DNA of 56,892 nucleotides from an uncultured Peptostreptococcaceae bacterium (GCA_964644525.1 CAZXWC010000003.1:1-56892), one strand, 5' to 3'; positions 19,126-55,998 are shown, counted from the stretch's first letter. The notes: a model not told the origin generated them from the letters alone. Program-made: numbers and translations.

Positions 19126-19154
19126 TTGATATATGGGGGGCGGCATGATATACT
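19126..19154 (+). promoter_or_regulatory. sigma-A promoter of the cobalamin operon
   Basis: TTGATA-N17-TATACT with extended TG. Confidence 0.7.
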
Positions 19155-19164
19155 GTGCATGGAA

Positions 19165-19320
19165 TCAATCAAAAAAATGCTTTGTTTAAGGGAAAAGGGT
19201 GCAAAGCCCTTGCTGTAGTCGCAGCTGTAACCGGGGATGGAAACCGAAAATTGCCACTGTACTCGAATGTATGGGAAGGTTCGGCCAAACAGATGATCCG
19301 GAAGCCAGAAGACCTGACTG
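19165..19320 (+). ncRNA. Cobalamin (B12) riboswitch aptamer
   Basis: TAAGGGAA...GGGTGCAAAGCCC, GCAGCTGTAA, GCCACTG(19253)...TGGGAAGG(19272), B12-box AGCCAGAAGACCTG(19303-16); located upstream of an ECF/DUF4430 operon. The 5' arm is atypical. Confidence 0.8.
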
Positions 19321-19419
19321 AGTGTTTTTCAAATCTGCTCCGGCTCTGAGGGATTGAAAAAATACAGATCTTGATCTAAAGGCTGTTTTTCTATCCCAAA
19401 AGGCAAGAACTGTATGAAT

Positions 19420-19454
19420 CTCTCTCCAAATCGGAGGGAGTTTGTTGTTTTTTT
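19420..19454 (+). terminator. Riboswitch expression-platform terminator
   Basis: CTCTCTCC / GGAGGGAG hairpin plus TTTGTTGTTTTTTT immediately before the RBS of the first gene. Confidence 0.7.
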
Positions 19455-19467
19455 GGAGGAATACATA

Positions 19468-20391
19468 ATGAGAAAAAAAATGATTGCAGCGGCTTTGGCT
19501 GTTATGTTTCTTTTGTCGGGATGCGCCGAAAATGAAATGGCACAGCCGGAAAATCGGCAACTCACAATTCTTGTGACAAGGGACTACGGACGGGAAATTC
19601 TTGCGGAAAGGTCCGTTTATCCATCCGAAGGCGATACGGTCATGGACCTTATGCAGGACAATTTTACCGTTGAGACTGCATACGGAGGCGGCTTTGTAAA
19701 CGCAATAGACGGCTTGAAGTCGGGCTATACCGGAAAAGGAAGTAGCCAAAAGAAAGGAACAAAAAAAGACTGGTTTTATTATGTAAACGGAGTGATGGCG
19801 GAGATTGGTGCGGATCAATATATGTGCGATGAAGCCAATGCTGTTTCGTGGGACTTTCACGATTGGGGCGGAGACATGTACGTGAAGACTCGAATAAACG
19901 CCTGGCCGGAAAGGCTCAAGGGAAGAAGCGTCGAAATGGCATTCGGACAGACTTTTGAAAAAGATGCGGTCAGAATAAGGGAAGCCTTCGAAGAGGCGGG
20001 AGGAAGAGTAGCAGAATCAACTGTGGAATCTCTTGATATGGAAGACCTTGAAAAAGACGCTTTGTTTGTGGGGACATGGCAAGATGCAAATAAAAACGAA
20101 TTTATAAAGGGAGTTTTTGAAAACCGCGAAAAGGCGGGAATATATTCCTATTTCAATGAAAAAGGACTTATGCTTTTCGACAACAATGGAGAAATAACGG
20201 CAACAAGGCAAAAAGGCGCAATAGCCGCATCTGTGCAGAAGGCTTACGGGTCTGAGGCTTCGGTCCTTCTGTTAGTCGGAAACGAGGTATCAATGATAGA
20301 AAAAATTGTAGATGTATTTTTGGACAGAGAGTCAGCCAAGGGCGCTTTCGGAATTGCTGCTACTGAGGAAGGTGTTTGCTATGTGCCATAA
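19468..20391 (+). CDS. Lipoprotein with DUF4430 (transcobalamin C-terminal/beta-like) domain
   Basis: Signal peptide with lipobox LSGC; TVMDLM..., FVNAIDG, WFYYVNG....GA motif typical of DUF4430; start at ATG 19468 (RBS GGAGG). Confidence 0.8.
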   Translation: MRKKMIAAALAVMFLLSGCAENEMAQPENRQLTILVTRDYGREILAERSVYPSEGDTVMDLMQDNFTVETAYGGGFVNAIDGLKSGYTGKGSSQKKGTKKDWFYYVNGVMAEIGADQYMCDEANAVSWDFHDWGGDMYVKTRINAWPERLKGRSVEMAFGQTFEKDAVRIREAFEEAGGRVAESTVESLDMEDLEKDALFVGTWQDANKNEFIKGVFENREKAGIYSYFNEKGLMLFDNNGEITATRQKGAIAASVQKAYGSEASVLLLVGNEVSMIEKIVDVFLDRESAKGAFGIAATEEGVCYVP

Positions 20392-21265
20392 ACTTCATCC
20401 GGCAAATGCCATGCTTTTGCTGGCTGTTCTTATTTCTGCCACACTTTTGGTCAGTCATCCTGTCCATTCCGCCTTGCTTGTATCGGTTCTGTCTTTTTCT
20501 GTGGCAGCCTTTGGCGGGGCCGGGGAACTGAAGGGATTGCTGAAGTTTTGGATAGTTACCGGAATTATGATTCTAATAATTAATCCGCTCGTTTCAACAC
20601 AGGGCCACACCGTATTGTTTCGCACGGTTCTTCCCATTGCGGGCAGGATTAGGATAACGGTTGAATCGCTTGCTTTTGCAGGACTTATGGTCTTGAGGCT
20701 TTTTTCCATGGTTTTGGTGATAAAGCTTTTCGGACTTTCTATAGACAGGGACGATTTTTTCGGATACCTGTCGCGTTACATGAACAAGCTGGTGCTTACA
20801 ATGAGCATGACTGTAAACATGATCCACAGGCTGAGGGTGGAAATACAGAGAGTAAGTGAAGTGATGGCCATGAGGGGCCTGGATTTGAAATCCGGAGGTT
20901 TGGTAAAAAGGACAAGGGCCTATTACCCCATGATAAAGGTAGTGCTCATAAGTTCTTTGGAAGGGTCTGTAAACCGGGCCGAGGCGCTTTATTCCAGGGG
21001 CTACGGAAAGGGCAAGAGAAGTTTTTACAGAGAAATAGGAATGACCGGCAAAGACCGTTTGCATATGGTCGCGCTTTGCATATACACAATTGTGTTTTTT
21101 TGGGGAATATATAAGGGTTGGCTGGGATTCAGCTTTTTCCCTGCGATTTCACCGAAAAGCGATTTCAGTTTGATTTATTTTGTGGCACATGCAACAAGTC
21201 TGGCAGTATTGATTGAAGCGACAAGGAGGTGTTCGGCTTGGAAGTTTTCAACATGGAAAATTTAA
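20381..21265 (+). CDS. ECF transporter transmembrane T component
   Basis: LHP N-terminus, INPL...QG.T.L, coupling helices with MAMRG and ALYSRGY; start at ATG 20381. Confidence 0.85.
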   Translation: MCHKLHPANAMLLLAVLISATLLVSHPVHSALLVSVLSFSVAAFGGAGELKGLLKFWIVTGIMILIINPLVSTQGHTVLFRTVLPIAGRIRITVESLAFAGLMVLRLFSMVLVIKLFGLSIDRDDFFGYLSRYMNKLVLTMSMTVNMIHRLRVEIQRVSEVMAMRGLDLKSGGLVKRTRAYYPMIKVVLISSLEGSVNRAEALYSRGYGKGKRSFYREIGMTGKDRLHMVALCIYTIVFFWGIYKGWLGFSFFPAISPKSDFSLIYFVAHATSLAVLIEATRRCSAWKFSTWKI

Positions 21266-22806
21266 CATACCATTATCCCAATAAGGACAGGCCGGCGCTT
21301 TCGCGACTGGACCTTAAAATACATGATGGTGAATTTCTTGTGGTGGCAGGAGCTTCGGGCTCCGGAAAATCAACCCTTGCCAGGATAATATCGCGTTTGG
21401 CACCCGAATTTTACGGGGGAAAGATAGAAGGGCGGGTGAATGGCACAAGAGACATAGGAATGGTTTTTCAGGACCCCGAGAAGCAGCTTGTAATGGAGAC
21501 CGTAGAGAGGGAAGTCGCTTTTCCTTTGGAAAACAGAGGGGTTGAAAGAAAGCTCATGAAGAAGCAGGTTCTCGAGGTTTTGAGCCTTTTGGGAATCTGG
21601 CATCTCAAGGATAAAAAGACATACGAATTGTCTGGCGGCGAAAAACAGAAGGTTGCGATTGCGGCCGCTTTAGCCGTAAGAAACAGATTTCTCGTGCTTG
21701 ACGAGCCGGTCTCGCAGCTCGACCCCATGGCTGCCGACGAAATAATGCACATTCTAAAAAAACTCAACGATGACTTGGGTTTCACCATAGTTCTTGTGGA
21801 GCAAAGGACAGAAAAATGCCTCAGCTACGCTGACCGGGTAGTGTTTCTGGACAATGGGGAAATAGCTTTTATCGGAAAGCCGCCTGAATATGTAAAGTGG
21901 GCGGGCAGGCATGACTGCAATTTTTTGCCTCCTGTGACGGAGCTGTTTTGGAGACTGGAATCCAATAATTTGCCGCTGACGGTCAAGCAAGGCAGAGAAC
22001 TCATAAACAGCAATTATGATGTGGCTGCAAATGCCTTGGGAAAACCTTTTCTTACGGCCAAAAGCAAAGCGATGACCTTGAAAAAAGTCGGTTTTTCATT
22101 CGGCGATGGGACTATGGCGCTGAGCTCGGTGACGCTCGATGTTGGCAAGGGCGAGACTTTGGGGATAATAGGAGCCAACGGGGCCGGGAAATCCACAGCC
22201 TTGCGAATAATGGCGGGACTTCTCAAGCCAAGCAAGGGTAAGGCGGAAGCGTACGGAGCGGTAGGATATCTTTCGCAGGAGCCAAACGACTATCTTTTCA
22301 ATGACACGGTTTACGAAGAACTGCTCTTTACCCAGAAGAACTTCGAGAAGATCGATTGCGATTTGATTGAGGAAATTTTATGCGATCTGGATATGGAATC
22401 CAAAAGGAATATAAATCCCAGGGACTTGTCGGGAGGAGAAAGGCAAAGGGTGGCGCTCGCTTCCGTTTTGGCCATGAAGCCTCAAATACTTCTTTTGGAC
22501 GAGCCGACACGGGGTCTCAACAAGGGTTACAAAATGCGCCTGGCGGCATACCTCGGGAATCTGAAAAGAAAGGGAAAAACAATTGTTCTTGTTACCCACG
22601 ATATGGAATTCGTTGCCGAAGTTTGCGATAGGGCGGTAATAATGTTTGACGGCCAAGTTGCGCAGGAAGGACCGACAAGTGAAATTTTGTCGGGAGGTCT
22701 CCATTTTACGACGGATATAAATCGCATGTTCCATGGAATGGCAAGCCCCTTAAGGATAGAAGAGGCTGAGGGCATATGCGTTAAAAAGGGGAGTGGAGGA
22801 CCATGA
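21238..22806 (+). CDS. ECF transporter ATPase with two fused ABC domains
   Basis: GASGSGKST / LSGGEKQK / LDEP and GANGAGKST / LSGGERQR / LDEPT; FQDPE; probable TTG start at 21238 (AGGAGG upstream). Confidence 0.92.
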   Translation: MEVFNMENLTYHYPNKDRPALSRLDLKIHDGEFLVVAGASGSGKSTLARIISRLAPEFYGGKIEGRVNGTRDIGMVFQDPEKQLVMETVEREVAFPLENRGVERKLMKKQVLEVLSLLGIWHLKDKKTYELSGGEKQKVAIAAALAVRNRFLVLDEPVSQLDPMAADEIMHILKKLNDDLGFTIVLVEQRTEKCLSYADRVVFLDNGEIAFIGKPPEYVKWAGRHDCNFLPPVTELFWRLESNNLPLTVKQGRELINSNYDVAANALGKPFLTAKSKAMTLKKVGFSFGDGTMALSSVTLDVGKGETLGIIGANGAGKSTALRIMAGLLKPSKGKAEAYGAVGYLSQEPNDYLFNDTVYEELLFTQKNFEKIDCDLIEEILCDLDMESKRNINPRDLSGGERQRVALASVLAMKPQILLLDEPTRGLNKGYKMRLAAYLGNLKRKGKTIVLVTHDMEFVAEVCDRAVIMFDGQVAQEGPTSEILSGGLHFTTDINRMFHGMASPLRIEEAEGICVKKGSGGP

Positions 22807-23438
22807 ATTTGGGAATAGTTTTGGCGGCCCTGCTTCTTGGAATGATGGCCTTGATACTTTGGCTCTACGAAAGCAGAAAGACAAATGTAAGGGAAATAGC
22901 TTTGGTTTCAACCCTGGCGGCCTTGGCGGCCGTGTCGAGAATATTTTTTGCGGCGCTTCCAAACATACAGCCGACCACTTTCATAGTGGTGACATCGGGT
23001 TTTGTATTCGGACCCAGTTTCGGTTTCATGACAGGGGCGATAGCGGCCTTTCTTTCAAACAATTTTCTAGGCCACGGACCGTGGACTCCTTGGCAGATGC
23101 TTGCATGGGGATTGGCGGGATTAATATCAGGACTTATAAGGAAGAGCGGAATACACAAAAGCAGAATGCTTTTCACGGTTTACGCTTTCATGTGGGGCTT
23201 TCTGTTTGACTGGCTGATGAACCTCTGGCACTGGCTTTTTTTCATCTATCCATTGAACTTTCGGAGTTTTATTGCTGTTTATGCGGCATCGTTCTACTTC
23301 GACATGCTGCATGCAGCGGGAAACGGGGTTTTCGCATTTCTGTTCGGAAAGGACCTTGTGAATATTCTGGGAAGATATAAGGAAAAACTTAGCTACGACA
23401 GGATTGATCAATCTACATATAAGGATGTGGCGGAATGA
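22803..23438 (+). CDS. ECF S component, CbrT-like (cobalamin)
   Basis: LAA.SR.....PNIQP.T, SN.FLG.GPWTPWQM.AWG, D..HA.GN motifs seen in CbrT-like S components; B12 riboswitch context. Confidence 0.82.
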   Translation: MNLGIVLAALLLGMMALILWLYESRKTNVREIALVSTLAALAAVSRIFFAALPNIQPTTFIVVTSGFVFGPSFGFMTGAIAAFLSNNFLGHGPWTPWQMLAWGLAGLISGLIRKSGIHKSRMLFTVYAFMWGFLFDWLMNLWHWLFFIYPLNFRSFIAVYAASFYFDMLHAAGNGVFAFLFGKDLVNILGRYKEKLSYDRIDQSTYKDVAE

Positions 23439-24742
23439 GAAAAAGTATTGAAGTATCAATTTTTGTATTGATTGCATGTTTTTTTATAACCGGCGCGGCA
23501 TGGGCTCAGGGAGCGGCAGGCGGTCCGCTTATGGATTATGAGCTTGACGAGTGGGGCATGCTGGCCCTTCACGCTTCAGGGCAAGACATGGAAGGCTTGA
23601 GGCTTGAATCGGTTTTGGGCTCTGAAATAACAACCGACCATGAAGCCTACATAATTGGGGCTTTGGCATTGGGACTCGATGTTTCGGAAGAGGCTGAGCT
23701 TGTAGCGGAAAGCCAGACGGCAAACGGCAAGTTTGCAGACTATACGGACGCAAGAGGCCAAGAGCTCTTAAACTCACACATATGGGGGATAATTGCGCTA
23801 GAGAGTGCGGGATACGAATCGTACGACAAACAAAAGGCGCAGGAATGGCTTCTGAATCATCAGAACGATGACGGAGGATTTCCTGTTTTTGCAGGCATGA
23901 AGCCTTCTGACGGCGACTTGACGGCAATGGCCGTTGTGGCGCTCGACCTGATGGGAGTGGACGCCGCCGACACGTCAATGGAAAAGGCTTTCGAATTCAT
24001 AGAATCAAACAATGAAGAGCGGCAAACAGCGGAAGGACTGGCATGGGAAATAATTGCGAGAAAGCAGACCGGGCGCGAAATCGGAGAAGACTTGAAGAAG
24101 AGACTTGAAGCATACAGGCTTGACAGCGGCAAGTATCTTCATATCAGGACCCTGGACTCGGGCAATTACATGGCGACCTGGCATGGAGTCTGGGCAGAAG
24201 GCGAGATGGACAGGCGATTGAGCGTTTTTGACGGCTTCAAGGCCAAAAACAGCCTGTCGGACATTGGCCGGGAAAGTAATGGATACCAGTCCATAAGCAG
24301 GCTGGTTGAGGATGGAGTGCTTTCGGGATACCCCGACGGGACGTTCAGGTCGGACGCGCCGGTTACGCGGGGCGAGTTTGTCAAGATGCTCGCATACGCA
24401 ATGAAAAAGGAAAAGGAATCGGCAAATCCAAATGGATTCATCGACATGCAGGGCCACTGGGCATCGCCCTATGTGGCAATTGCGGTCGACAGCGGAATAT
24501 TCAACGGCGTTTCGGATACACTCTTTGATCCGGAAAGCGGAATAACCGGAGCCCAACTCGCGGCGGTGGCTGTAAGGGTAAAAGGCATGGAAACCGAGGC
24601 GAAAGCCTTTAACGGAGACACATGGTACGACGGGTACGTTTATTATTCCTGGCTGCATGATTTGCAGTACCAGGGTTTTGATACAGATAAAGAAGCTACA
24701 AGGGCGCAGTGCGCCGAGCTTATTGACAACTTATACTATTAG
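23435..24742 (+). CDS. Secreted SLH-anchored protein with prenyltransferase/squalene-cyclase-like alpha-helical repeats
   Basis: Signal peptide; SQTANGKF, WLLNHQNDDGGF, DLTAMAVVAL, YRLDSGKY repeats; C-terminal SLH motifs (GYPDGTF....TRGEF, HWA, TRAQ). Confidence 0.8.
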   Translation: MRKSIEVSIFVLIACFFITGAAWAQGAAGGPLMDYELDEWGMLALHASGQDMEGLRLESVLGSEITTDHEAYIIGALALGLDVSEEAELVAESQTANGKFADYTDARGQELLNSHIWGIIALESAGYESYDKQKAQEWLLNHQNDDGGFPVFAGMKPSDGDLTAMAVVALDLMGVDAADTSMEKAFEFIESNNEERQTAEGLAWEIIARKQTGREIGEDLKKRLEAYRLDSGKYLHIRTLDSGNYMATWHGVWAEGEMDRRLSVFDGFKAKNSLSDIGRESNGYQSISRLVEDGVLSGYPDGTFRSDAPVTRGEFVKMLAYAMKKEKESANPNGFIDMQGHWASPYVAIAVDSGIFNGVSDTLFDPESGITGAQLAAVAVRVKGMETEAKAFNGDTWYDGYVYYSWLHDLQYQGFDTDKEATRAQCAELIDNLYY

Positions 24743-24765
24743 ACTGGCAAACGGAGGAACAATCA

Positions 24766-27700
24766 ATGAAATCAAGATTTTTAAGCTTTTTAATCATCAT
24801 CGCAATGCTATTCGGCATGGTGCCCAATGTTGGAATGGTCACTGCATTCGGCCAGCCTGCGCCGGCACAAACAGTGGATGATTTGGCGCTCCAGGCGGTC
24901 AGGAACATATATGAAAAATATCAGGGCGGAGCCGCGGTTGACGGGGCAGGATACACAAGCTTCGATTCATATTATGGTACAGTCTTGATAGATGCGGGAA
25001 TAGACCTTTCCACATGGGAGAGAAACGGTACAAACCTTAAAGATGAATTTTTGGCTTTGATAGATGAAACGGTTTTAAACCTTGAGGGCAAGACCAGCAA
25101 GCGAATAGCCCAGGATTATTTTCTTGCCCAAAAGCTTGGACAAACAACGAGGTCGGAGGTATTGCTTGACGCTTTAGTAGATGCACAGACCAGCGCGGGT
25201 GCCTTGTCATCAAACTTTTATGGTGATGCGCCAGCCTATGATATTTTGGGAGAAGCCGGCGCAACAGACGGCTTCGACAAGGCGGTTGCAGTTTCATATA
25301 TAAACGGCCGGCAAGGAAGCGACGGATGCATAGCGTGGGATTTTACTGCCACAGCCCAGGCCGCAAGGGCTTTAAAATATCTTGATGAAACGCAGGCAAG
25401 CATAGCAAGTGCTTCGGCATGGCTTCAGACCAAGCAGCTTGGGGACGGGAGTTACAGTGTCCATCATGCAGGATATACATGGGATGGTGTTGACTATCCT
25501 TCATACTACGAAGATTTTTTGATTGATACTGCAGAGATGTTAAAGTTTATGACCCTTGCAGATTCCGATTGGGTGACAACAACATCAGAGGGGGCTGCGG
25601 CAGCAGACTATTTGGTCAATGAAGCTTTAAACGACGATGGAACATTTGGCACATCAAAAAACTTGATGGATGATGTATGGGCTCTTGAGGCTTATATCAA
25701 CCTGGGCGCAAATATCTCAATTGATGCAGAAGTGGATTTGACTATAAACGAGAGAAAAACAAGATTGGACAAAGGAGAGCAGTGCGTATTTACGCTTAAT
25801 GGCTTCATTATGAATGGAAATTCTGATGGCGTTTCAGCTTCAAATGCTTCGTGGTCAGTTAGCAACTCCTCAAAGGCTGCCATAGATTCAAATGGAGTCT
25901 TGACAGCTATAGATGTTGGTGAAGTTACGGTTACGGCAACATATGAGGGCATAAGCGACTCCGTGGTTGTTGAAGTATATTCTCTGAATGACCTTGCGCT
26001 CCAGGCGGTCAGGAACATATATGAAAAATACCAGGATGGACTTGCGGTAGGCGAGCCCGAGACGCAATGGGGGGCGTACATGTCTTCCTCAGATTGCAAG
26101 GCTATTATTGATGCGGGTATTGACATATCCACTTGGGAGAGAAACGGAACAAATTTAAAAGAAGAGATCGAGGCACACATTGAAGGTGCAAGCGGAAGGG
26201 ATGCAAAACAGCTTGCGCAGGATTATCTGTATCTTGATGCAGCAGGTGAAACAACATCGGCATCTGCCGTCTTGGATATGATCAAGGCCATGCAGACAAG
26301 CACAGGAGCACTTTCTGAAAGCATGTATGCTGATGCAACGGCATTCGACATGCTTGGAGAGGCCGGCGTTTTCAATTTTGCCGATGCCTTAAACAATGCC
26401 AGCGCTGAAAACTATCTGGAAGGCGCACAAGGTTCGGACGGATCGTGGGCATGGGGGGATTTTGCATCAACCGCACAGATTGCCAGAGCCTTGAAGCTTC
26501 TTGATCCGGACAGCGAATCTGTAACCTCGGCAGCCGCATGGCTTGGAAAAAAACAGCTTGAAAACGGAAGCTACAACAATTCATCCGTTTATGACGGTGT
26601 GACCTATTGGGACGATGCTTTGGTCGATACCGCGGAGATGCTCCTCGTGATGACGGCAATTGATTCGGATTGGGCATCGACTACTTCAGAGGGCGCTGCC
26701 GCGCTGGACTACCTTGGAACGGATGCATGGAATGATGATGGCACATTCGGAGGGTACAAAAATCTTGCGGATGATGTATATGCGCTCAAGTCTTTTATGA
26801 AAATGGGAGCAACAACAAGCGGCGCATCTGTTATCGGAATAACTATAGACGCTGACGATTCAAATATTTATGAGGACGGAGACACCAGCACCTTCACGGC
26901 GACAAAGCACCTGTTTGATGGAACGACCCAGAGCGCTTCGGCTTCGGATTTGGACTGGTCTGTGGATGAATCGTCAAAAGCCTCTGTTTCAGATGGTGTG
27001 CTTTCAGCAAGCTCGGCGGGAGATGTTGTTGTTACTGCAAACCTTGACGGGATGACAAACTCTGAGAGCATTACGATATACTCACTTGACGATTTGGCAA
27101 TGCAGGCGGTTCAGAATGCATATGACAGGTATCAAGATGGTGCTTTGGTTGATGGCGCATATGGTAATTTTGACTCTTACCACGGCGCTGTGCTTGTTGA
27201 TGCAGGCATAGACCTTTCAACATGGGAAAGGAATGATACCAACCTTAGAGCCGAAATGATAGACCTGATTGACGCATCGATTGCCAGCCCGAGCGATATG
27301 AGCAGCAAGCGGATCGCGCAGGATTATTTCCTTGCCCAAAAGATTGGGGATACGGCAAGAGCTGAGGCTCTTCTGAATGTATTGAAAGGGAATCAAACAA
27401 TCGAAGGGGCATTGTCTTCAAACTATCTTGGGGATGCCAATGCGTTTGACTTGCTCAGAGAAGCAGGGGATTTAAACAAAGTTTCAACGACAAGCGCCAT
27501 AGATTATATCAAGGCAAACCAAAATCAGGAAGAGTATACATGGGGTTATGCGTATTTGGGTTGGAATTCCGATTTCATGGGGACAGCGCAATCGGTGAGA
27601 AATCTGATAGAGCTTGAACCGGAATCAACAGCGGTTACATCGGGCGTGGCATGGCTTCAATCAAAACAAACAATAGAAGGATCATTTTTAAACGGAGCTT

Positions 27701-29835
27701 GGGATGATCCATTAATCGATACTGCCGAGATGCTAAAAACAATGACGCTTATGGATCCGGACTGGGAGAGTGCCACCACCGAGGGGACCATTGCGGTCGA
27801 ATATCTTTGTATGGATGCTTTGAACGAAGATGGAACCTTCGGGACGAGCGGCAACCTGGCGGACGATATATGGGCTATTGAAGCTTACTTAAGCCTTGGC
27901 GCCGAGCTTGACCTGGGACTTTCAGTTTCACCTGCAGACAGCTCGATTACCGAGAACAACACAAAGCAGTATTCAGCTTCTGTAATAGGACTTAGCGGCA
28001 CGGAGAATGTGACGGAGTCGGTCGAATGGTCCGTAAGCGACAATTCAAAGGCAAGCATTGATTCAAATGGTTTGTTGACGGCCAAAAACCCGGGAGTTGT
28101 TACTGTTCGCGCTTCATACAACGGGCTTGTAGGCCAAACAGAACTTACAATAAGCAATTACGAGGCTCCTATGGACAGGGCCTATGTAACGGTCAAGGGG
28201 TACGGGGAAACTATACTTCCGAGAACTTCGGTAACCATAGGACGCGGAGACAGCGTGCTTGATGTTACAAAGGATATTTTGGACTCAAGAAATATTTCAT
28301 ACACAGCTTCAGGCGGATATGTGAGCGAGATAGACGGAATAAAGGAAAAAGATTACGGCGCCCAAAGCGGATGGATGGTTTTGATAAACGGTGATGCGCC
28401 ACCAAGCAGTACGGACAATGTTTCCGCAGAAAATGGCGACAATATCTATTGGTTCTATACATCGGACTGGACTGAGGAAGAAGGCGCATTCGCGGGAGAA
28501 ATAGAAGAAACGGAAGTTTTGGCGGATGATCTGCTTGCCGACGAAGATTCCACCCTCGAGGAGATAGATGCCGCCTTCGACGCGCTCATGGAAGAAGAGG
28601 GCGAGGATGCTGCAGACACTCTGATTCTCCTTGCGGAATCGGCAATAAAAAAATCCGGCCAGGTTTCATTAGAAATGGATGGAAATGAGCCTGCGGACAT
28701 GGACGCATCCGACCTTGAGGTTTTGTCGGAGGCGGCTGTGGACAAGGCTTCGGATTTAAGCGACGAATTTGAGGAAGAAGGCATAGCTCTGGACAAAGCC
28801 CTCGAAAGCAGGGTTTTCATAAGGGCGGAAGAGGACGAGGATGCTGCCTCTGTTGAATTCGAAGCGGGAGCTTTGGCAAGAGCCTTTGATGCGAACCTTG
28901 ACCAGGTGGCTGTAGCTACACCGTGGGCGGAGATCGAACTCGGCGCTGACACTCTAAGCGACGAGGACGTGGACAAGGAGGTTTTGCTTGAGGTCAAGCC
29001 GGCTGACGATTCCGATTTGCCGGAAGGCGCGGATGTTCCCGATGGCTCTACTGTAATCGACATGAATCTGTTTGTTGGCGGAGAAAAGGTAAGCAATTTC
29101 AAGGGAAGCATGACGGTTTCGATTCCGGTCGAATACGATGGGGACAATGAGGCGGCGCTTACGGTATACTGGCTTCAGGACGACGGCAGCGTCGTACCTG
29201 TTGGAGGCGCATACAACGAGGAAAGCGGAATGATTGTTTTTGAGACAAATCACTTCAGCAAGTATTTTGCCGATGAATCCCATGTTTCATTTGATGATAT
29301 GGAACTTGCGGCATGGGCGGAAGAACAAGTGTCGGCAATGGCAGGAAAGGGCTTCGTAAATGGAAGGGGTCCTGGCCAATTCGATCCTTCAAACGATATA
29401 AGAAGAGCGGAATTCGTTGCGATAGTCACAAGGATGCTGAGCCTAGAGGCTTCATATGACTATACGGCGGAATTTGCAGATGTTTCTGATTCGGACTGGT
29501 TCGCCGCTTCTGTTGCCGCAGCAAGCGAGGCGGGACTGATGAACGGAAAGGGCGGGGGAATGTTCGACCCAAATGGAAAGATAACACGTCAGGAGCAGGC
29601 TGTTGTGCTTGCCAATATTTTGCAAAACTATGGGTATTTTGCAGGATCGACAGACTTGAAAAATGTGTTTGAGGATGCGACTGACATAGCCTATTGGGCT
29701 GAAGATGGAGCAATATGCGCAGTGCATCATGGCCTGATCAATGGAATGGACGGTCGGTTTGCCCCGAATGAAAAAGCTACTAGAGCCCAATCGGCTGTAA
29801 TGCTTTACAGGCTTTATGCAAAGATAATTAAGTAG
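24766..29835 (+). CDS. 1689-aa SLH-anchored surface protein: 3x(alpha-barrel + Ig-like BIG2), DUF4430, acidic linker, beta domain ending NHFSKY, 3 SLH
   Basis: Signal peptide; three ~370-aa repeats starting D/NDLA.QAV.N.Y..YQ; Ig-like WSV.....A.I...G.LTA...G.V.V.A; DUF4430 YVSEIDG...SGWM..ING; SLH motifs (WA...V...GF.NG, RAEF, TRQE, TRAQ). Confidence 0.85.
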   Translation: MKSRFLSFLIIIAMLFGMVPNVGMVTAFGQPAPAQTVDDLALQAVRNIYEKYQGGAAVDGAGYTSFDSYYGTVLIDAGIDLSTWERNGTNLKDEFLALIDETVLNLEGKTSKRIAQDYFLAQKLGQTTRSEVLLDALVDAQTSAGALSSNFYGDAPAYDILGEAGATDGFDKAVAVSYINGRQGSDGCIAWDFTATAQAARALKYLDETQASIASASAWLQTKQLGDGSYSVHHAGYTWDGVDYPSYYEDFLIDTAEMLKFMTLADSDWVTTTSEGAAAADYLVNEALNDDGTFGTSKNLMDDVWALEAYINLGANISIDAEVDLTINERKTRLDKGEQCVFTLNGFIMNGNSDGVSASNASWSVSNSSKAAIDSNGVLTAIDVGEVTVTATYEGISDSVVVEVYSLNDLALQAVRNIYEKYQDGLAVGEPETQWGAYMSSSDCKAIIDAGIDISTWERNGTNLKEEIEAHIEGASGRDAKQLAQDYLYLDAAGETTSASAVLDMIKAMQTSTGALSESMYADATAFDMLGEAGVFNFADALNNASAENYLEGAQGSDGSWAWGDFASTAQIARALKLLDPDSESVTSAAAWLGKKQLENGSYNNSSVYDGVTYWDDALVDTAEMLLVMTAIDSDWASTTSEGAAALDYLGTDAWNDDGTFGGYKNLADDVYALKSFMKMGATTSGASVIGITIDADDSNIYEDGDTSTFTATKHLFDGTTQSASASDLDWSVDESSKASVSDGVLSASSAGDVVVTANLDGMTNSESITIYSLDDLAMQAVQNAYDRYQDGALVDGAYGNFDSYHGAVLVDAGIDLSTWERNDTNLRAEMIDLIDASIASPSDMSSKRIAQDYFLAQKIGDTARAEALLNVLKGNQTIEGALSSNYLGDANAFDLLREAGDLNKVSTTSAIDYIKANQNQEEYTWGYAYLGWNSDFMGTAQSVRNLIELEPESTAVTSGVAWLQSKQTIEGSFLNGAWDDPLIDTAEMLKTMTLMDPDWESATTEGTIAVEYLCMDALNEDGTFGTSGNLADDIWAIEAYLSLGAELDLGLSVSPADSSITENNTKQYSASVIGLSGTENVTESVEWSVSDNSKASIDSNGLLTAKNPGVVTVRASYNGLVGQTELTISNYEAPMDRAYVTVKGYGETILPRTSVTIGRGDSVLDVTKDILDSRNISYTASGGYVSEIDGIKEKDYGAQSGWMVLINGDAPPSSTDNVSAENGDNIYWFYTSDWTEEEGAFAGEIEETEVLADDLLADEDSTLEEIDAAFDALMEEEGEDAADTLILLAESAIKKSGQVSLEMDGNEPADMDASDLEVLSEAAVDKASDLSDEFEEEGIALDKALESRVFIRAEEDEDAASVEFEAGALARAFDANLDQVAVATPWAEIELGADTLSDEDVDKEVLLEVKPADDSDLPEGADVPDGSTVIDMNLFVGGEKVSNFKGSMTVSIPVEYDGDNEAALTVYWLQDDGSVVPVGGAYNEESGMIVFETNHFSKYFADESHVSFDDMELAAWAEEQVSAMAGKGFVNGRGPGQFDPSNDIRRAEFVAIVTRMLSLEASYDYTAEFADVSDSDWFAASVAAASEAGLMNGKGGGMFDPNGKITRQEQAVVLANILQNYGYFAGSTDLKNVFEDATDIAYWAEDGAICAVHHGLINGMDGRFAPNEKATRAQSAVMLYRLYAKIIK
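24877..28160 (+). repeat. Intragenic triplication of a ~1.1 kb module
   Basis: Units start at 24877, 25987 and 27088 (periods 1110 and 1101 nt). The 35-nt string GCGCTCCAGGCGGTCAGGAACATATATGAAAAATA is identical at 24886-24920 and 25996-26030. Confidence 0.9.
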
Positions 29836-29887
29836 GAACAGTCAAAATGAATTAATGCAATTTGCTTATATTCAATAGTAAATGACT

Positions 29888-29926
29888 ATAATAACGGCCC
29901 TGGTTCTTCGGGGCCGTTATTATTAT
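29888..29926 (+). terminator. Terminator ending the cobalamin operon
   Basis: ATAATAACGGCCC / GGGCCGTTATTAT. Confidence 0.75.
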
Positions 29927-33789: not shown

Positions 33790-33844
33790 TCTGAACTATA
33801 TTAAGTATACAAAATACAGAAAAACAAAAAACCAAAAAAACAAA

Positions 33845-34104
33845 AGACGATGAAGGGAAGAGTAATTTCAATCCGAATTCAAGCGAGCTGGTGATGGTGA
33901 AAGACCGGCGGGAGGATTGTTTTGAAGAACATCCCGGAGTCTCTGACCGAAATGAAAAGAGTAGGCTCAGACGGAAAGGGACCGTTACATCTCTAAAGTA
34001 CCAGTAATATTGATGTGTACTTGCGAGCAGGCTTAAAAGCAATTGGGGTGGCAACGCGGAAGATGACCTTTCGTCCTTATGACAGGGATGAAGGGTCTTT
34101 ATAT
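33845..34104 (+). ncRNA. T-box riboswitch, transcriptional, probable Asn specifier
   Basis: Stem I: GATGA/GGA K-turn, GGGA/TCCC helix, AGTA/GAA, AGCGAG-CTGGT-GATGGTGAAAG-ACCGG apex, specifier loop GAAGAACA. Stem II with GAA/AGTA; CCGTTA; T-box GGGG-TGGCAAC-GCGG (34045-59); terminator GACCTTTCGTCCTT/AGGGATGAAGGGTC plus TTTATAT. Confidence 0.92.
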
Positions 34105-34143: not shown

Positions 34144-35388
34144 ATGGAAGGATTGACTATGAAGGCAATTGACACAATGTGGGTTCTCATTGCGGCGGCA
34201 CTGGTGTTTTTCATGCAGGCGGGATTCGCTTTGGTGGAGGCGGGCTTTACAAGATCGAAAAATGCAGGAAACATTATTATGAAAAACCTCATGGACTTTT
34301 CCATAGGATCTATCATGTATTGGGTCATTGGATTCGGACTCATGTTCGGAATTACAAACTACGGTTTTTTCGGAACGATAATGCCTTTTTCAACTGGTGA
34401 TTTTTCACACCTGGGCCTTGGCATACCAACTGAGGCCTTCCTGATTTTTCAAACGGTATTTTGCGCCACGGCGGCGACCATAGTATCCGGAGCCATGGCG
34501 GAAAGGACAAAATTTCTCGGCTATTTGATATTCAGCTTTTTTATGACATCTCTGATATATCCCGTAGTTGGACACTGGGTGTGGGGAGGCGGATGGCTTG
34601 CGGGAATGGGCTTTCATGATTTCGCCGGATCGAGCGTAGTTCACGGACTTGGAGGCATGGCTGCTTTGGTTGGAGCTTACATCCTTAAGCCAAGAATTGG
34701 GAAATACGATTTGTCGGGCAAAGCCAATTCAATACCCGGCCACAATATGATAATGGGAGCATTGGGTGTATTCGTGCTCTGGCTAGGCTGGTTCGGCTTC
34801 AACCCCGGATCGACGCTTTCGGGAATGGCGTTTGAGGATATTTCGCACATATTCATGACGACAAACCTTTCGGCTGCTATGGCTGCGACAGCGGCAATGC
34901 TTTTCACATGGATCAAGTCGGGAAAGCCGGATGTGGGAATGACTCTCAATGGAGCTTTGGCTGGGCTTGTTGGAATAACTGCGGGAACAGATGCGGTAAG
35001 CCTGGTCGGCGCCGCGGCAATAGGACTTATTTCAGGGGTGTTGGTTGTATTGGGGGTAGAATTCATAGATAAAAAGTTAAAAATCGATGATCCGGTGGGA
35101 GCTTCGTCGGTTCACGGCATATGCGGATTTTCCGGAACGATTCTTGTAGGTATATTCGCAAGGGATGGAGGACTCCTTTACGGGGGAGGAACAGACCTTT
35201 TGGTCACGCAGACAATAGGCGTTTGGGCAATAGCTCTTTGGACGCTTGCTAGCAGCCTTGTGCTTTTCAAGGCAATAGAAGCGACGGTCGGATTGAGAGT
35301 TGGAGAGGAAGAGGAAAAAGTCGGATTGGATCTGAAAGAGCACGGCATAAGCAGCTATGGGGACTTCAAAATCAAAAGGGCAATTTGA
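34144..35388 (+). CDS. amtB: Ammonium transporter (Amt family)
   Basis: FFMQAGFALVEAG, FQTVF..TAATIVSGAMAER, DFAGSSVVH, GWFGFNPGS, NGALAGLVGIT, DDPVGA..VHG; twin His and Phe gate present; start at ATG 34144 (RBS AAGGAG). Confidence 0.95.
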   Translation: MEGLTMKAIDTMWVLIAAALVFFMQAGFALVEAGFTRSKNAGNIIMKNLMDFSIGSIMYWVIGFGLMFGITNYGFFGTIMPFSTGDFSHLGLGIPTEAFLIFQTVFCATAATIVSGAMAERTKFLGYLIFSFFMTSLIYPVVGHWVWGGGWLAGMGFHDFAGSSVVHGLGGMAALVGAYILKPRIGKYDLSGKANSIPGHNMIMGALGVFVLWLGWFGFNPGSTLSGMAFEDISHIFMTTNLSAAMAATAAMLFTWIKSGKPDVGMTLNGALAGLVGITAGTDAVSLVGAAAIGLISGVLVVLGVEFIDKKLKIDDPVGASSVHGICGFSGTILVGIFARDGGLLYGGGTDLLVTQTIGVWAIALWTLASSLVLFKAIEATVGLRVGEEEEKVGLDLKEHGISSYGDFKIKRAI

Positions 35389-54896: not shown

Positions 54897-54904
54897 GACC
54901 GCAG

Positions 54905-55100
54905 GCGGTATCGAATTCGAGCCGCACTGAAACGGTTTTATTCTACAATTGAATAATAATGAAATTCTGCTCTGAGCCAATGGACCGAGACAGAGGTGAC
55001 AAGATTAATTTGATAAATTCGCCTTTCTATGCAACTGCTTAGGAAGGCTTTTATTGTTTTGTTTTGTATGCCCGCCGGTTTAAACCGGCGGGCATTTATT
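54905..55100 (+). ncRNA. Structured 5' leader / attenuator of the pan operon (pan-motif-like)
   Basis: Two hairpins with bulged A (54905-25, 54970-95), terminator GCCTTTCT/AGGAAGGC plus T tract (55021-60), and a perfect 28-bp palindrome (55068-95). Confidence 0.5.
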
Positions 55101-55119: not shown

Positions 55120-55998
55120 ATGAAAATAGGATTTGTAGGCGGTGGAAGAGTCGGTAAAGCTTATGGCAAGTTCTTGAAAAGCCGCGGATATGATGTTTGT
55201 GGATATTTCAGCAGAACGCAGTCTTCTGCAATGGCAGCAGCTTCCTTTGCGGCTACATCCTGGTATGGCAGCATGGAAAAATTGGCGGAAGCCGCCGACA
55301 TTATATTCCTTACTGTAAATGACGACCAGATTCGCTTGGCTGCAGAAAAACTGTCCAATATTGATCCTTCATTGGATGGAAAGATTGTTATACATATGAG
55401 TGGAGCTTTGGCATCCTGCGAACTGGATATTCTTAAAAAGAGAGGTTGCCACATATATTCCCTGCATCCTCTTTTGTCCTTTGCTGAACCCGAAAAAGCA
55501 TGGGAGAGAGTTGAAGACGCTGTATTTTCTGTAGAAGGCGACAGCTCAAAAATGGATACAATGATTCGCTTGCTTAAAGACACGGGATGTTCGTATTTTG
55601 AAATAGAAACAGACAAGAAGGCTCTATACCATGCTGCGGCATGTGTGGCATCGAACTATGTGACGGTCCTTTTGGATTATGCATATTCTTTATATCTGGA
55701 TATGGGGCTTTCAAGAGAAGATGCCGGCAAAGCCCTGTTGCCGCTTGTCAAAGGAACGGTTCAAAACGCTGAGGACGGAGGGCCTGAAAAGACACTTACC
55801 GGACCCATTTCCAGAGGCGATGTAGGTGTAATAAGGCGCCATATGGAAGCATTTGAAAAATCGGCAAAAGATAAAGAGGATTTTTACCGGTTCATGGGGT
55901 TGCAAACGGTTGCTTATGCAAAGCGTTACGGACTCCAACCGGAGGAAAAAATAAATGAAATGACAAAAATATTAAACAGGGGTGAGCTGGATGGCTAA
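55120..55998 (+). CDS. Rossmann-like + DUF2520 oxidoreductase, probable PanG-type ketopantoate reductase
   Basis: [37 protein letters not shown]; first gene of the panBC operon. Confidence 0.8.

What the first reader, a model, noticed from the sequence alone, without database searches (positions are those of the whole stretch)
19126..29926. Candidate bacterial transcobalamin-like B12 capture relay under a cobalamin riboswitch
Seen: one apparent operon (overlapping or closely spaced genes, one promoter, riboswitch plus attenuator, one final terminator) encoding a DUF4430 lipoprotein, ECF T, a double ATPase, a CbrT-like S component, an alpha-repeat SLH protein and a 1689-aa SLH protein. Known: human transcobalamin and intrinsic factor clamp B12 between an alpha6/alpha6 barrel (squalene-cyclase/prenyltransferase-like) and a beta domain related to DUF4430; ECF-CbrT imports cobalamin. 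Inference: a multi-stage system in which a long cell-wall-anchored scavenger hands corrinoids across the wall to a membrane lipoprotein and then to the ECF. I do not know of a biochemical description of this full architecture. It is the best candidate for a new system in this window.
Basis: partly seen in the sequence, partly recalled or inferred. Interest (0 to 1): 0.85.

Follow-up and report, generated by a model that had tools for sequence, protein, structure and literature searches.

The report
Riboswitch-controlled B12 capture and import operon
This is a vitamin-B12-repressed operon of a Gram-positive anaerobe that joins a B12 importer to three surface proteins built from the same two modules as human B12 carriers. 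The gene set is conserved in at least 70 species and was predicted by computation in 2007, but its biochemistry has never been tested.

Summary
One promoter-like site, a strong cobalamin riboswitch with a terminator hairpin, six overlapping or closely spaced genes and a final terminator lie at 19126-29926.

The genes encode:
- a DUF4430 lipoprotein;
- EcfT;
- a fused double ATPase;
- an S component whose best solved relative is CbrT, the B12 S component of PDB entry 6FNP;
- a signal-peptide, alpha/alpha-toroid, SLH protein;
- a 1689-aa protein with three toroid+Big_2 repeats, one DUF4430, an acidic spacer and three SLH domains.

The beta (DUF4430) modules resemble the beta domains of transcobalamin, intrinsic factor and haptocorrin. 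The toroids are real alpha/alpha toroids, but their nearest relatives are squalene cyclase and prenyltransferase beta subunits. No specific match to the transcobalamin alpha domain was found.

The gene set recurs in 71 species of Bacillota. Every locus whose 5' end is present (51) carries the riboswitch.

The best explanation is corrinoid capture at the cell surface feeding an ECF-CbrT importer. The outside-to-inside hand-off is inferred, not shown.

It is not a new kind of system. Burroughs et al. (2007) predicted such operons, and a smaller Lactobacillus sakei version was reported to take up heme. No biochemical description was found.

The parts
19126..19154 (+). sigma-70-type promoter-like site, TTGATA-17-TATACT with TG extension
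   Evidence: 10 of 12 matches; a consensus match only
19166..19335 (+). cobalamin riboswitch aptamer (RF00174)
   Evidence: 96.9 bits, gathering score 31.5, E 5.8e-23, full model 1-189. My own covariance model R1 gives 152.9 bits.
19420..19453 (+). expression-platform terminator: 8-bp G+C-rich hairpin followed by a U-run
19468..20391 (+). g1: 307-aa lipoprotein (lipobox LLSGC, Cys19). DUF4430 beta-grasp at residues 55-131 (19630-19860). Unnamed alpha/beta C-terminal domain at residues 141-307.
   Evidence: PF14478, 54.3 bits; start codon, lipobox; AF2 pLDDT 90.9; Foldseek: BcsB, 3u7z, haptocorrin 4kki, IF 2pmv/3kq4; C-domain has no family
20381..21265 (+). g2: ECF T component (CbiQ family). 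The ORF opens at 20312; the likely start is ATG 20381.
   Evidence: PF02361, 45.8 bits; start codon, 294-aa gene call
21229..22806 (+). g3: fused EcfA-EcfA' double ABC ATPase
   Evidence: two ABC_tran stretches, 179.5 bits; TIGR04520 342 bits and TIGR04521 334 bits, both above their cut-offs
22803..23438 (+). g4: ECF S component, a CbrT homolog
   Evidence: PF07155 55.3 bits, PF12822 39.3 bits; 6fnp_A, E 7.5e-15, residues 28-198 against 8-178; 6FNP is ECF-CbrT
23435..24742 (+). g5: signal peptide (cleavage near AWA/Q, residue 24), small-type alpha/alpha toroid (residues ~30-272, 23522-24250), SLH triplet (residues 273-435)
   Evidence: AF2 pLDDT 93.4; Foldseek: SLH 3pyw, GGTase beta, C3d, SHC; profile to SHC, E 1e-20
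24766..29835 (+). g6: 1689-aa secreted, SLH-anchored protein
24871..25980 (+). g6 repeat 1 (residues 36-405): big-type toroid + Big_2
   Evidence: repeat alignment; toroid profile to SHC, E 7e-12; hhalign to the g5 toroid, 95%
25981..27081 (+). g6 repeat 2 (residues 406-772): toroid + Big_2
   Evidence: 50.8% identical to repeat 1
27082..28200 (+). g6 repeat 3 (residues 773-1145): toroid + Big_2
   Evidence: (Big_2 at 1053-1123)
28246..28461 (+). g6 DUF4430 (transcobalamin-like beta-grasp), residues 1161-1232
   Evidence: PF14478, 49.1 bits; 5no0, E 1.7; hhalign to the human TC beta domain: 84%, E 7.6e-6; 98% to the g1 type
28498..29280 (+). g6 acidic spacer (residues 1245-1400; 33% D+E, 18% A) and beta-rich pre-SLH domain (residues 1401-1505)
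   Evidence: this region recurs in related loci as the 'MID' segment
29287..29832 (+). g6 SLH x3 cell-wall anchor
   Evidence: PF00395, 92.3 bits, 3 stretches; Sap SLH 6bt4, E 2.9e-17
29890..29926 (+). operon terminator hairpin with T-rich tail

Best explanation
This is a corrinoid (vitamin B12 family) acquisition operon of a monoderm Clostridia bacterium, probably a relative of Peptostreptococcaceae.

Regulation (inferred from the elements present): when intracellular adenosylcobalamin is high, the leader riboswitch lets the terminator hairpin form and the operon stays off. When B12 is scarce, all six genes are transcribed.

The importer: g2 (EcfT), g3 (fused A-A' ATPase) and g4 (CbrT-type S component) form a dedicated ECF importer for cobalamin and cobinamide.

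The accessory proteins: three extracytoplasmic proteins are built from the two modules that clamp B12 in mammalian carriers, an alpha/alpha toroid and a DUF4430 beta-grasp.
- g6 is held in the wall by C-terminal SLH domains. An acidic spacer holds three toroid-Ig units and one DUF4430 outward as a capture antenna.
- g5 is a single toroid fixed directly to the wall by SLH.
- g1 is a lipid-anchored DUF4430 protein at the outer face of the membrane.

Proposed mechanism: corrinoids are bound at the surface and passed inward to CbrT, possibly by toroid and beta modules of different proteins closing around the ligand in trans.

Shown: domain identities, sorting signals, riboswitch control and conserved co-occurrence.
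Inferred: corrinoid binding by these proteins, and the order and directness of the hand-off.
For: - Riboswitch at 96.9 bits plus a terminator.
- g4 is closest to the experimentally characterised CbrT of 6FNP, E 7.5e-15. The ECF T and A components score above curated cut-offs.
- DUF4430 scores above the Pfam cut-off in both g1 and g6. DUF4430 is the C-terminal domain of TCN proteins, and UniRef names g1 homologs 'Transcobalamin-like C-terminal domain' proteins.
- The g1 model (pLDDT 90.9) matches a bacterial DUF4430 structure (3u7z), haptocorrin and intrinsic factor. The g6 DUF4430 profile aligns to the TC beta domain at 84%.
- The g5 model (pLDDT 93.4) is an alpha/alpha toroid plus an SLH trimer. 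The g6 repeats are homologous toroids.
- Of 71 loci from different species, 47 hold all six components. Another 5 have the small toroid fused to DUF4430 in the TC domain order. All 51 loci with an intact 5' end carry a same-strand cobalamin riboswitch.
- The g1 family has 764 representative clusters at E <= 1e-30.
- An independent bioinformatic prediction reached the same function.
Against: - There are no binding or transport data for any of these proteins.
- The toroids show no specific similarity to the TC/IF/HC alpha domain.
- The operon has four toroids but only two beta domains, so a simple 1:1 clamp does not explain the stoichiometry.
- ECF S components normally need no binding protein.
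- A homologous, smaller L. sakei cluster was reported to take up heme.
- In L006 and L013 the T-A-S genes lie upstream of the riboswitch.
Confidence: 0.65

Rival explanations
1. Surface hoarding without a relay. The three accessory proteins bind corrinoids independently. They concentrate or sequester them at the cell surface, for competition, storage or selection among cobamide types. CbrT then picks up ligand that dissociates freely, with no protein-to-protein transfer.
For: - Four loci (L022, L059, L067, L070) keep the riboswitch and the three binder genes with no ECF genes nearby. In L006 and L013 the riboswitch covers only the binders.
- CbrT alone binds B12 tightly and transports it without helpers.
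- The number of toroids varies from 1 to 3 between species, as expected for an avidity or capacity device.
Against: - The strict co-occurrence of a membrane-anchored, a wall-anchored and a far-projecting binder in 47 loci suggests ordered stations.
- Fusions of the small toroid to DUF4430 suggest that the modules cooperate.
Confidence: 0.2
2. A different ligand. The system imports heme or another tetrapyrrole, or only incomplete corrinoids such as cobyrinate diamide or cobinamide, rather than complete cobalamin.
For: - Deleting the L. sakei lsa1836-1840 cluster (ECF plus separate TC-alpha-like and beta-like secreted proteins) impaired heme uptake.
- cbrUVT has been annotated as a cobyrinate diamide uptake system.
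- ECF-CbrT also transports cobinamide.
Against: - A cobalamin riboswitch precedes the cluster in all 51 loci with an intact 5' end, which ties expression to the cobalamin pool.
- Hemin did not compete with B12 in ECF-CbrT.
- The beta modules belong to the B12-carrier family.
Confidence: 0.1
3. The toroids are not ligand binders. They would be enzymatic or adhesive modules (terpenoid-cyclase/prenyltransferase-like, or complement-TED-like) that act on the wall, on host carrier proteins or on polysaccharide. Only the DUF4430 domains would touch B12.
For: - The nearest relatives of both toroid types are squalene-hopene cyclase, prenyltransferase beta and C3d/TED, not B12 carriers.
- Toroids outnumber beta domains four to two.
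Against: - The conserved residues (QNxDGGF, SDxDxTA) are the generic structural repeat motif of this fold and not an intact DxDD catalytic motif (read, with motif knowledge from memory).
- The proteins are extracytoplasmic, away from isoprenoid diphosphate substrates.
- Toroid-DUF4430 fusions in the TC domain order are common in the related loci, and the TC toroid does bind B12.
Confidence: 0.05

Closest known systems
Bacterial transcobalamin-like SLBB/toroid surface proteins in CbiO/CbiQ operons (Burroughs, Balaji, Iyer and Aravind 2007, PMC1796856)
   Same: It has the same components: secreted or surface SLBB (DUF4430) proteins, fusion to an alpha/alpha toroid, a second paralogous SLBB protein in the operon, ABC ATPase and CbiQ-like genes, and predicted B12 scavenging. 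This operon is a member of that predicted class.
   Different: That work is a prediction only. The passages read do not mention riboswitch control, the CbrT-type S component, SLH anchoring, a stand-alone toroid gene, the g1 C-terminal domain or toroid arrays.
ECF-CbrT of Lactobacillus delbrueckii (PDB 6FNP; Santos et al. 2018, PMC5997447)
   Same: g4 is homologous to CbrT over its full length, E 7.5e-15. ECF-CbrT is an ATP-driven ECF importer of cobalamin and cobinamide.
   Different: The characterised system transports B12 without any extracytoplasmic binding protein. As I recall, it uses a shared ECF module. Here T, a fused A-A' and S are dedicated and co-transcribed with three accessory surface proteins.
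Mammalian transcobalamin, intrinsic factor and haptocorrin
   Same: They use the same two modules in the same order, toroid then DUF4430 beta-grasp, in an extracellular B12 carrier. Beta-domain similarity is shown by structure and by profile.
   Different: - The alpha domain is not detectably related beyond fold class.
- The modules are split across proteins and multiplied.
- The proteins are anchored to wall or membrane.
- Delivery is to an ECF transporter, not to an endocytic receptor.
Lactobacillus sakei Lsa1836-1840 (Verplaetse et al., bioRxiv 10.1101/864751)
   Same: An ECF S/A/T set plus separately encoded TC-alpha-like and TC-beta-like secreted proteins in one cluster.
   Different: It was reported as a heme importer on genetic evidence. 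That paper reports neither an SLH giant nor a riboswitch.
Bacteroides BtuG/BtuH/BtuJ-BtuB extracellular cobamide relay
   Same: It works alike: several surface-exposed B12 binders under B12 control feed a transporter.
   Different: The protein families are different, and it uses outer-membrane lipoproteins with a TonB-dependent transporter. A 2026 review calls the Gram-positive situation 'entirely uncharacterized'.
Isd/NEAT heme relay of Gram-positive bacteria (from memory, not tested here)
   Same: It has the same layered logic: wall-anchored receptors at different depths pass a tetrapyrrole to a membrane lipoprotein and an ABC importer. As I recall, Bacillus anthracis also uses an SLH-anchored NEAT protein.
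   Different: The binding fold (NEAT) is unrelated, anchoring is mostly by sortase, the ligand is heme and regulation is by Fur.

Membership tests
Cobalamin riboswitch (Rfam RF00174) | Covariance-model score above the gathering threshold over the full aptamer | tested here: met
   96.9 bits against 31.5, model positions 1-189 of 189
Cobalamin riboswitch (Rfam RF00174) | Ligand-dependent control of downstream expression | not testable with these tools
   A terminator hairpin plus U-run is present. Switching itself needs in-line probing or a reporter assay.
ECF transporter with a dedicated module | T component, two ABC ATPase domains and an S component encoded together | tested here: met
   PF02361, two PF00005 stretches, PF07155/PF12822, all above cut-off; TIGR04520 and TIGR04521 above cut-off
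CbrT (B12-specific S component) | Sequence homology to the characterised CbrT | tested here: met
   6fnp_A is the best PDB match, E 7.5e-15, residues 28-198 against 8-178. The next match has E 0.044.
CbrT (B12-specific S component) | Binds and transports cobalamin or cobinamide | not testable with these tools
   needs a transport or ITC assay as in PMC5997447
DUF4430 / transcobalamin-like SLBB beta-grasp | Pfam PF14478 above the gathering score | tested here: met
   g1 54.3 bits and g6 49.1 bits, cut-off 23.8
DUF4430 / transcobalamin-like SLBB beta-grasp | Structural or profile similarity to the beta domain of TC/IF/HC | tested here: met
   - g1 model: 3u7z TMt 0.67; 4kki E 9e-3 with probability 0.99; 2pmv and 3kq4 E ~1e-2.
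- g6 profile against the TC beta domain: hhalign 84%.
- g1 type against g6 type: 98%.
- The g1 profile alone against TC reaches only 7.8%.
Eukaryotic cobalamin carriers (TC/IF/HC), alpha domain | Sequence or profile match to the Cobalamin_bind alpha domain | tested here: not met
   - No PF01122 hit in any of 44 toroid sequences at E <= 10.
- No TC/IF/HC chain at E <= 10 in profile searches of the PDB.
Eukaryotic cobalamin carriers (TC/IF/HC), alpha domain | Alpha/alpha toroid fold, with TC among the nearest structural neighbours | tested here: inconclusive
   The toroid fold is confirmed (GGTase beta, FTase beta, SHC, C3d). No TC/IF/HC appears among the 50 matches shown, out of 437 with E <= 10; lower ranks could not be seen. 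The g6 toroids were not modelled.
Eukaryotic cobalamin carriers (TC/IF/HC) | Toroid N-terminal to the beta-grasp in one chain, clamping one B12 | tested here: inconclusive
   The domain order is met in g6, with a Big_2 domain in between, and directly in many homologs such as L011, L023 and L056. The clamp geometry and the ligand were not tested.
SLH cell-wall anchor | Three SLH motifs forming the SLH fold | tested here: met
   PF00395; Sap SLH; 3pyw, TMt 0.74 for g5
Bacterial lipoprotein | Signal peptide ending in a lipobox with Cys | tested here: met
   MRKKMIAAALAVMFLLSGC, read directly. A GC at this position is in the majority consensus of 63 homologs.

The most novel reading that the evidence does not exclude
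The operon encodes a true multi-tier corrinoid relay across the Gram-positive wall. It would be the monoderm counterpart of the Bacteroides BtuG/H/J relay and of the Isd heme relay. Toroid and DUF4430 modules belonging to different proteins (g6, g5, g1) would close transiently around B12 as a 'split transcobalamin'. The ligand would pass stepwise from a three-toroid antenna beyond the wall, to a wall-embedded toroid, to a membrane lipoprotein, and then into CbrT. This would make it an ECF transporter that, against the textbook rule, works with dedicated extracytoplasmic binding proteins.
Probability: 0.3. Interest if true: 0.75.

Novelty: new member of a known kind. Interest (0 to 1): 0.55.

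Why it matters
- How Gram-positive bacteria capture cobamides outside the cell is an open question. A 2026 review calls it entirely uncharacterised.
- This gene set is widespread: 71 species were found with one peptide pattern, and the lipoprotein family has 764 representative clusters at E <= 1e-30. It is under B12 control in every locus where that could be checked.
- It contains the bacterial relatives of the human B12-carrier beta domain.
- It offers a concrete, testable system for three questions: competition for B12 in anaerobic communities, ECF transporters that use accessory binding proteins, and the proposed bacterial origin of animal B12 carriers.
- Several cultured relatives carry the cluster: Brassicibacter mesophilus, Marinisporobacter balticus, Defluviitalea phaphyphila and Dethiosulfatibacter aminovorans.

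Tried and rejected
- Single-sequence searches of g1, g5 and g6 against PDB sequences gave SLH, Big_2 and SHC hits only, and nothing at all for g1.
- Profile searches with both toroid families found SHC, prenyltransferase and TED chains but never TC, IF or HC. Pfam Cobalamin_bind was never hit. I therefore dropped the claim that the alpha domains are specifically TC-like.
- The g1-type DUF4430 profile against the PDB gave only chance hits, and against the TC beta fragment only 7.8%. The link for g1 rests on structure and on its 98% match to the g6 type.
- The g1 C-terminal domain gave no significant PDB or Pfam match. It has only weak BcsB signals, and its role stays open.
- I considered that the giant SLH protein is an unrelated neighbour. 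I rejected this because it sits in the same riboswitch-headed cluster in dozens of species, in varying gene order.
- I considered a catalytic terpene cyclase or prenyltransferase role and judged it unlikely (see the rival explanations).
- I could not compare the toroids with a TC alpha-domain profile, because no TC alpha sequence was obtainable through the tools.
- Literature searches for a biochemical description found none.


Full report
**1.

Rfam places a full-length cobalamin riboswitch at 19166-19335 on the + strand, at 96.9 bits against a gathering score of 31.5. A promoter-like TTGATA-17-TATACT site lies just upstream at 19126-19154. Downstream, an 8-bp G+C-rich hairpin at 19420-19440 is followed by a U-run. 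After it come a GGAGG ribosome-binding site and ATG 19468, which opens a protein beginning MRKKMIAAALAVMFLLSGC, a lipoprotein signal. The ORF start at 19414 quoted by the ORF list lies upstream of the terminator and is not the real start.

Six same-strand genes follow, with spacings of -11, -37, -4, -4 and +23 nt. A hairpin with a T-rich tail ends the unit at 29890-29926. Gene callers on identical metagenome contigs predicted the same six genes, with g2 at 294 aa and g3 at 517 aa. The flanking genes are unrelated to B12: a LytS/LytTR two-component pair, MadM, a CoA-transferase, a GGDEF protein, an EamA transporter and a flavodoxin.

**2. What the parts are.**

- g2 is a CbiQ-family ECF T component.
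- g3 is a fused double ABC ATPase that passes the curated cut-offs of both ECF ATPase models.
- g4 is an ECF S component. Its best solved relative by a wide margin is chain A of 6FNP (E 7.5e-15, nearly full length; the next hit has E 0.044). 6FNP is ECF-CbrT, the characterised cobalamin/cobinamide importer of Lactobacillus delbrueckii, in which hemin does not compete.
- g1 carries a DUF4430 domain (54.3 bits) and a 167-aa C-terminal domain with no family. Its AlphaFold model, built on 63 homologs, has pLDDT 90.9. Foldseek matches the DUF4430 part to a Ruminococcus gnavus DUF4430 structure (3u7z, TMt 0.67), to haptocorrin (4kki, probability 0.99) and to intrinsic factor (2pmv, 3kq4). The top-ranked matches are BcsB chains, aligned over about 180-200 columns. 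Because 3 of 23 homologs of the C-terminal domain also give weak Pfam BcsB hits, I attribute these matches to the alpha/beta C-terminal half. The aligned residues were not shown, so this attribution is an inference.
- g5 has a signal peptide, an alpha/alpha toroid of about 240 aa, and a complete SLH triplet. Its model has pLDDT 93.4.
- g6 has a signal peptide and three tandem repeats of about 368 aa, each a toroid plus a Big_2 domain, 44-51% identical to each other. These are followed by one DUF4430 (49.1 bits), a 156-aa spacer with 33% Asp+Glu, a beta-rich domain and three SLH motifs.

**3. How transcobalamin-like is it?**

The beta module is. DUF4430 is the C-terminal domain of TCN proteins, and public databases name g1 homologs 'Transcobalamin-like C-terminal domain' proteins. 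The g1 model matches HC and IF. The g6-type DUF4430 profile aligns over 71 columns to the human TC beta domain at 84% hhalign probability. The two DUF4430 types of the operon match each other at 98%.

The alpha module is a genuine alpha/alpha toroid, but nothing ties it specifically to TC. Foldseek's toroid matches for g5 are geranylgeranyl- and farnesyltransferase beta subunits, C3d and squalene-hopene cyclase. Profiles of both toroid types reach SHC (E 1e-20 and 7e-12), with no TC, IF or HC chain even at E <= 10. None of 44 toroid sequences touches Pfam Cobalamin_bind. The two toroid types are related to each other at 95%.

**4. Comparative genomics.**

A scan of species-representative genomes with the g5 alignment returned 71 loci. 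They come from Peptostreptococcaceae-like MAGs, Brassicibacter, Marinisporobacter, Defluviitalea, Wukongibacter, Syntrophomonas, Dethiobacter, Desulfotruncus, Caloramator, Clostridium and Brevibacillus. Domain mapping gives this breakdown:

| Loci | Content |
|---|---|
| 47 | all six components: DUF4430 lipoprotein, T, A, S, small toroid with or without SLH, and a large protein with 1-3 toroids + DUF4430 + SLH |
| 5 | no SLH-anchored giant; the small-type toroid is fused to a DUF4430 in the TC domain order |
| 4 | riboswitch and binder genes only, with no ECF genes nearby |
| 15 | incomplete: mostly contigs cut short |

Gene order varies. The giant protein is more often the first gene than the last.

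A covariance model built from seven Rfam-verified riboswitches found a same-strand cobalamin riboswitch directly ahead of the cluster in 51 loci. In the other 20 loci the first cluster ORF abuts the 5' edge of the available DNA. So every locus that could show the riboswitch does show it.

The lipoprotein family is large: 764 representative clusters at E <= 1e-30 in a library of 1.84 billion proteins.

**5. Most likely mechanism.**

Shown: a B12-sensing leader; a dedicated ECF importer with a CbrT-type S component; and three exported proteins carrying the two module types of B12 carriers, with sorting signals that place them at the membrane (g1, lipid anchor), in the wall (g5, toroid directly on SLH) and projecting outward (g6, about 1250 residues of binding modules plus a spacer N-terminal to its SLH anchor).

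Inferred: these proteins bind corrinoids, and they pass them inward to CbrT.

The toroid-DUF4430 fusions in Caloramator and Clostridium argue that the stand-alone toroid works together with a DUF4430 domain. A clamp formed in trans between proteins is one attractive way to hand the ligand on. The excess of toroids over beta domains (four to two) is unexplained.

**6. Relation to what is known.**

Burroughs et al. (2007) described this class by sequence analysis. They reported bacterial SLBB domains of the transcobalamin clade fused to toroids, often alongside a second SLBB protein, in operons with CbiO- and CbiQ-like genes, in organisms that usually lack B12 synthesis, and they predicted B12 scavenging. 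cbrUVT is a standard genomic signature for B12-related uptake. Verplaetse et al. studied a five-gene L. sakei version and reported heme uptake.

I found no biochemical work on the accessory proteins, and a 2026 review states that extracellular cobamide capture in Gram-positives is uncharacterised. The window therefore holds a new member of a kind that is known only from prediction. Its features here are SLH anchoring and a triple toroid-Ig array.

**7. Rivals.**

- The binders may hoard B12 rather than relay it. The binder-only operons and the known self-sufficiency of CbrT speak for this.
- The ligand may differ, for example heme or corrinoid precursors. The universal riboswitch and the lack of hemin competition in CbrT speak against heme.
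- The toroids may have a non-binding role. Their nearest relatives speak for this; the TC-order fusions speak against it.

**8. Limits.**

- The g6 modules were not modelled in 3D.
- TC alpha-domain similarity could be judged only from the top 50 Foldseek matches and from sequence profiles.
- The B12 biosynthetic capacity of the host genome is unknown.
- All functional statements about g1, g5 and g6 are inference.

Noticed in passing
window 33841-34081 (+) and 34145-35388: A full-length T-box leader (98.4 bits), with what looks by eye like its own terminator, sits directly upstream of an ammonium transporter gene (PF00909). That is an unusual T-box target. By eye the specifier may be AAC (Asn) in GAAGAACA; this was not verified.
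   Followed up: partly
L012:288-693 and L029:1202-1738: Two cobalamin riboswitches in tandem precede the homologous cluster in a Thermosediminibacterales MAG and in a Dethiobacter alkaliphilus MAG.
   Followed up: no
L056, L061, L062, L063, L069 (Caloramator, Clostridium aestuarii and relatives): The small-type toroid is fused to a DUF4430 domain in one ORF, in the same domain order as transcobalamin. These clusters lack the SLH giant. L061 has two such units in one protein.
   Followed up: partly
L022, L059, L067, L070: A riboswitch is followed by the large toroid-DUF4430-SLH protein, the DUF4430 lipoprotein and the small toroid, with no ECF genes within the fetched flanks. The binder set looks separable from the transporter.
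   Followed up: no
L006:8607 and L013:8620: The riboswitch lies between the S-component gene and the lipoprotein gene, so the T-A-S genes sit upstream of it and only the binder genes follow it.
   Followed up: no
window 19888-20388 (g1 residues 141-307): This conserved alpha/beta domain has no Pfam or NCBIfam family. Foldseek's best matches are BcsB chains of cellulose synthase, and 3 of 23 homologs give weak Pfam BcsB hits. It is a candidate docking domain.
   Followed up: partly
P0356: A 2038-aa protein in the representative library carries ten matched stretches of the g1-type DUF4430 profile, an extreme beta-domain array.
   Followed up: no
window 19126-29926: The operon has 47.7% G+C against 42.6% for the whole window. 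This may only reflect the Ala/Asp/Glu/Gly-rich g6.
   Followed up: no
window 54902-54997 (+): A pan motif RNA (RF01749, 55.4 bits) lies upstream of the ORF at 55120-55998. That ORF was not scanned.
   Followed up: no
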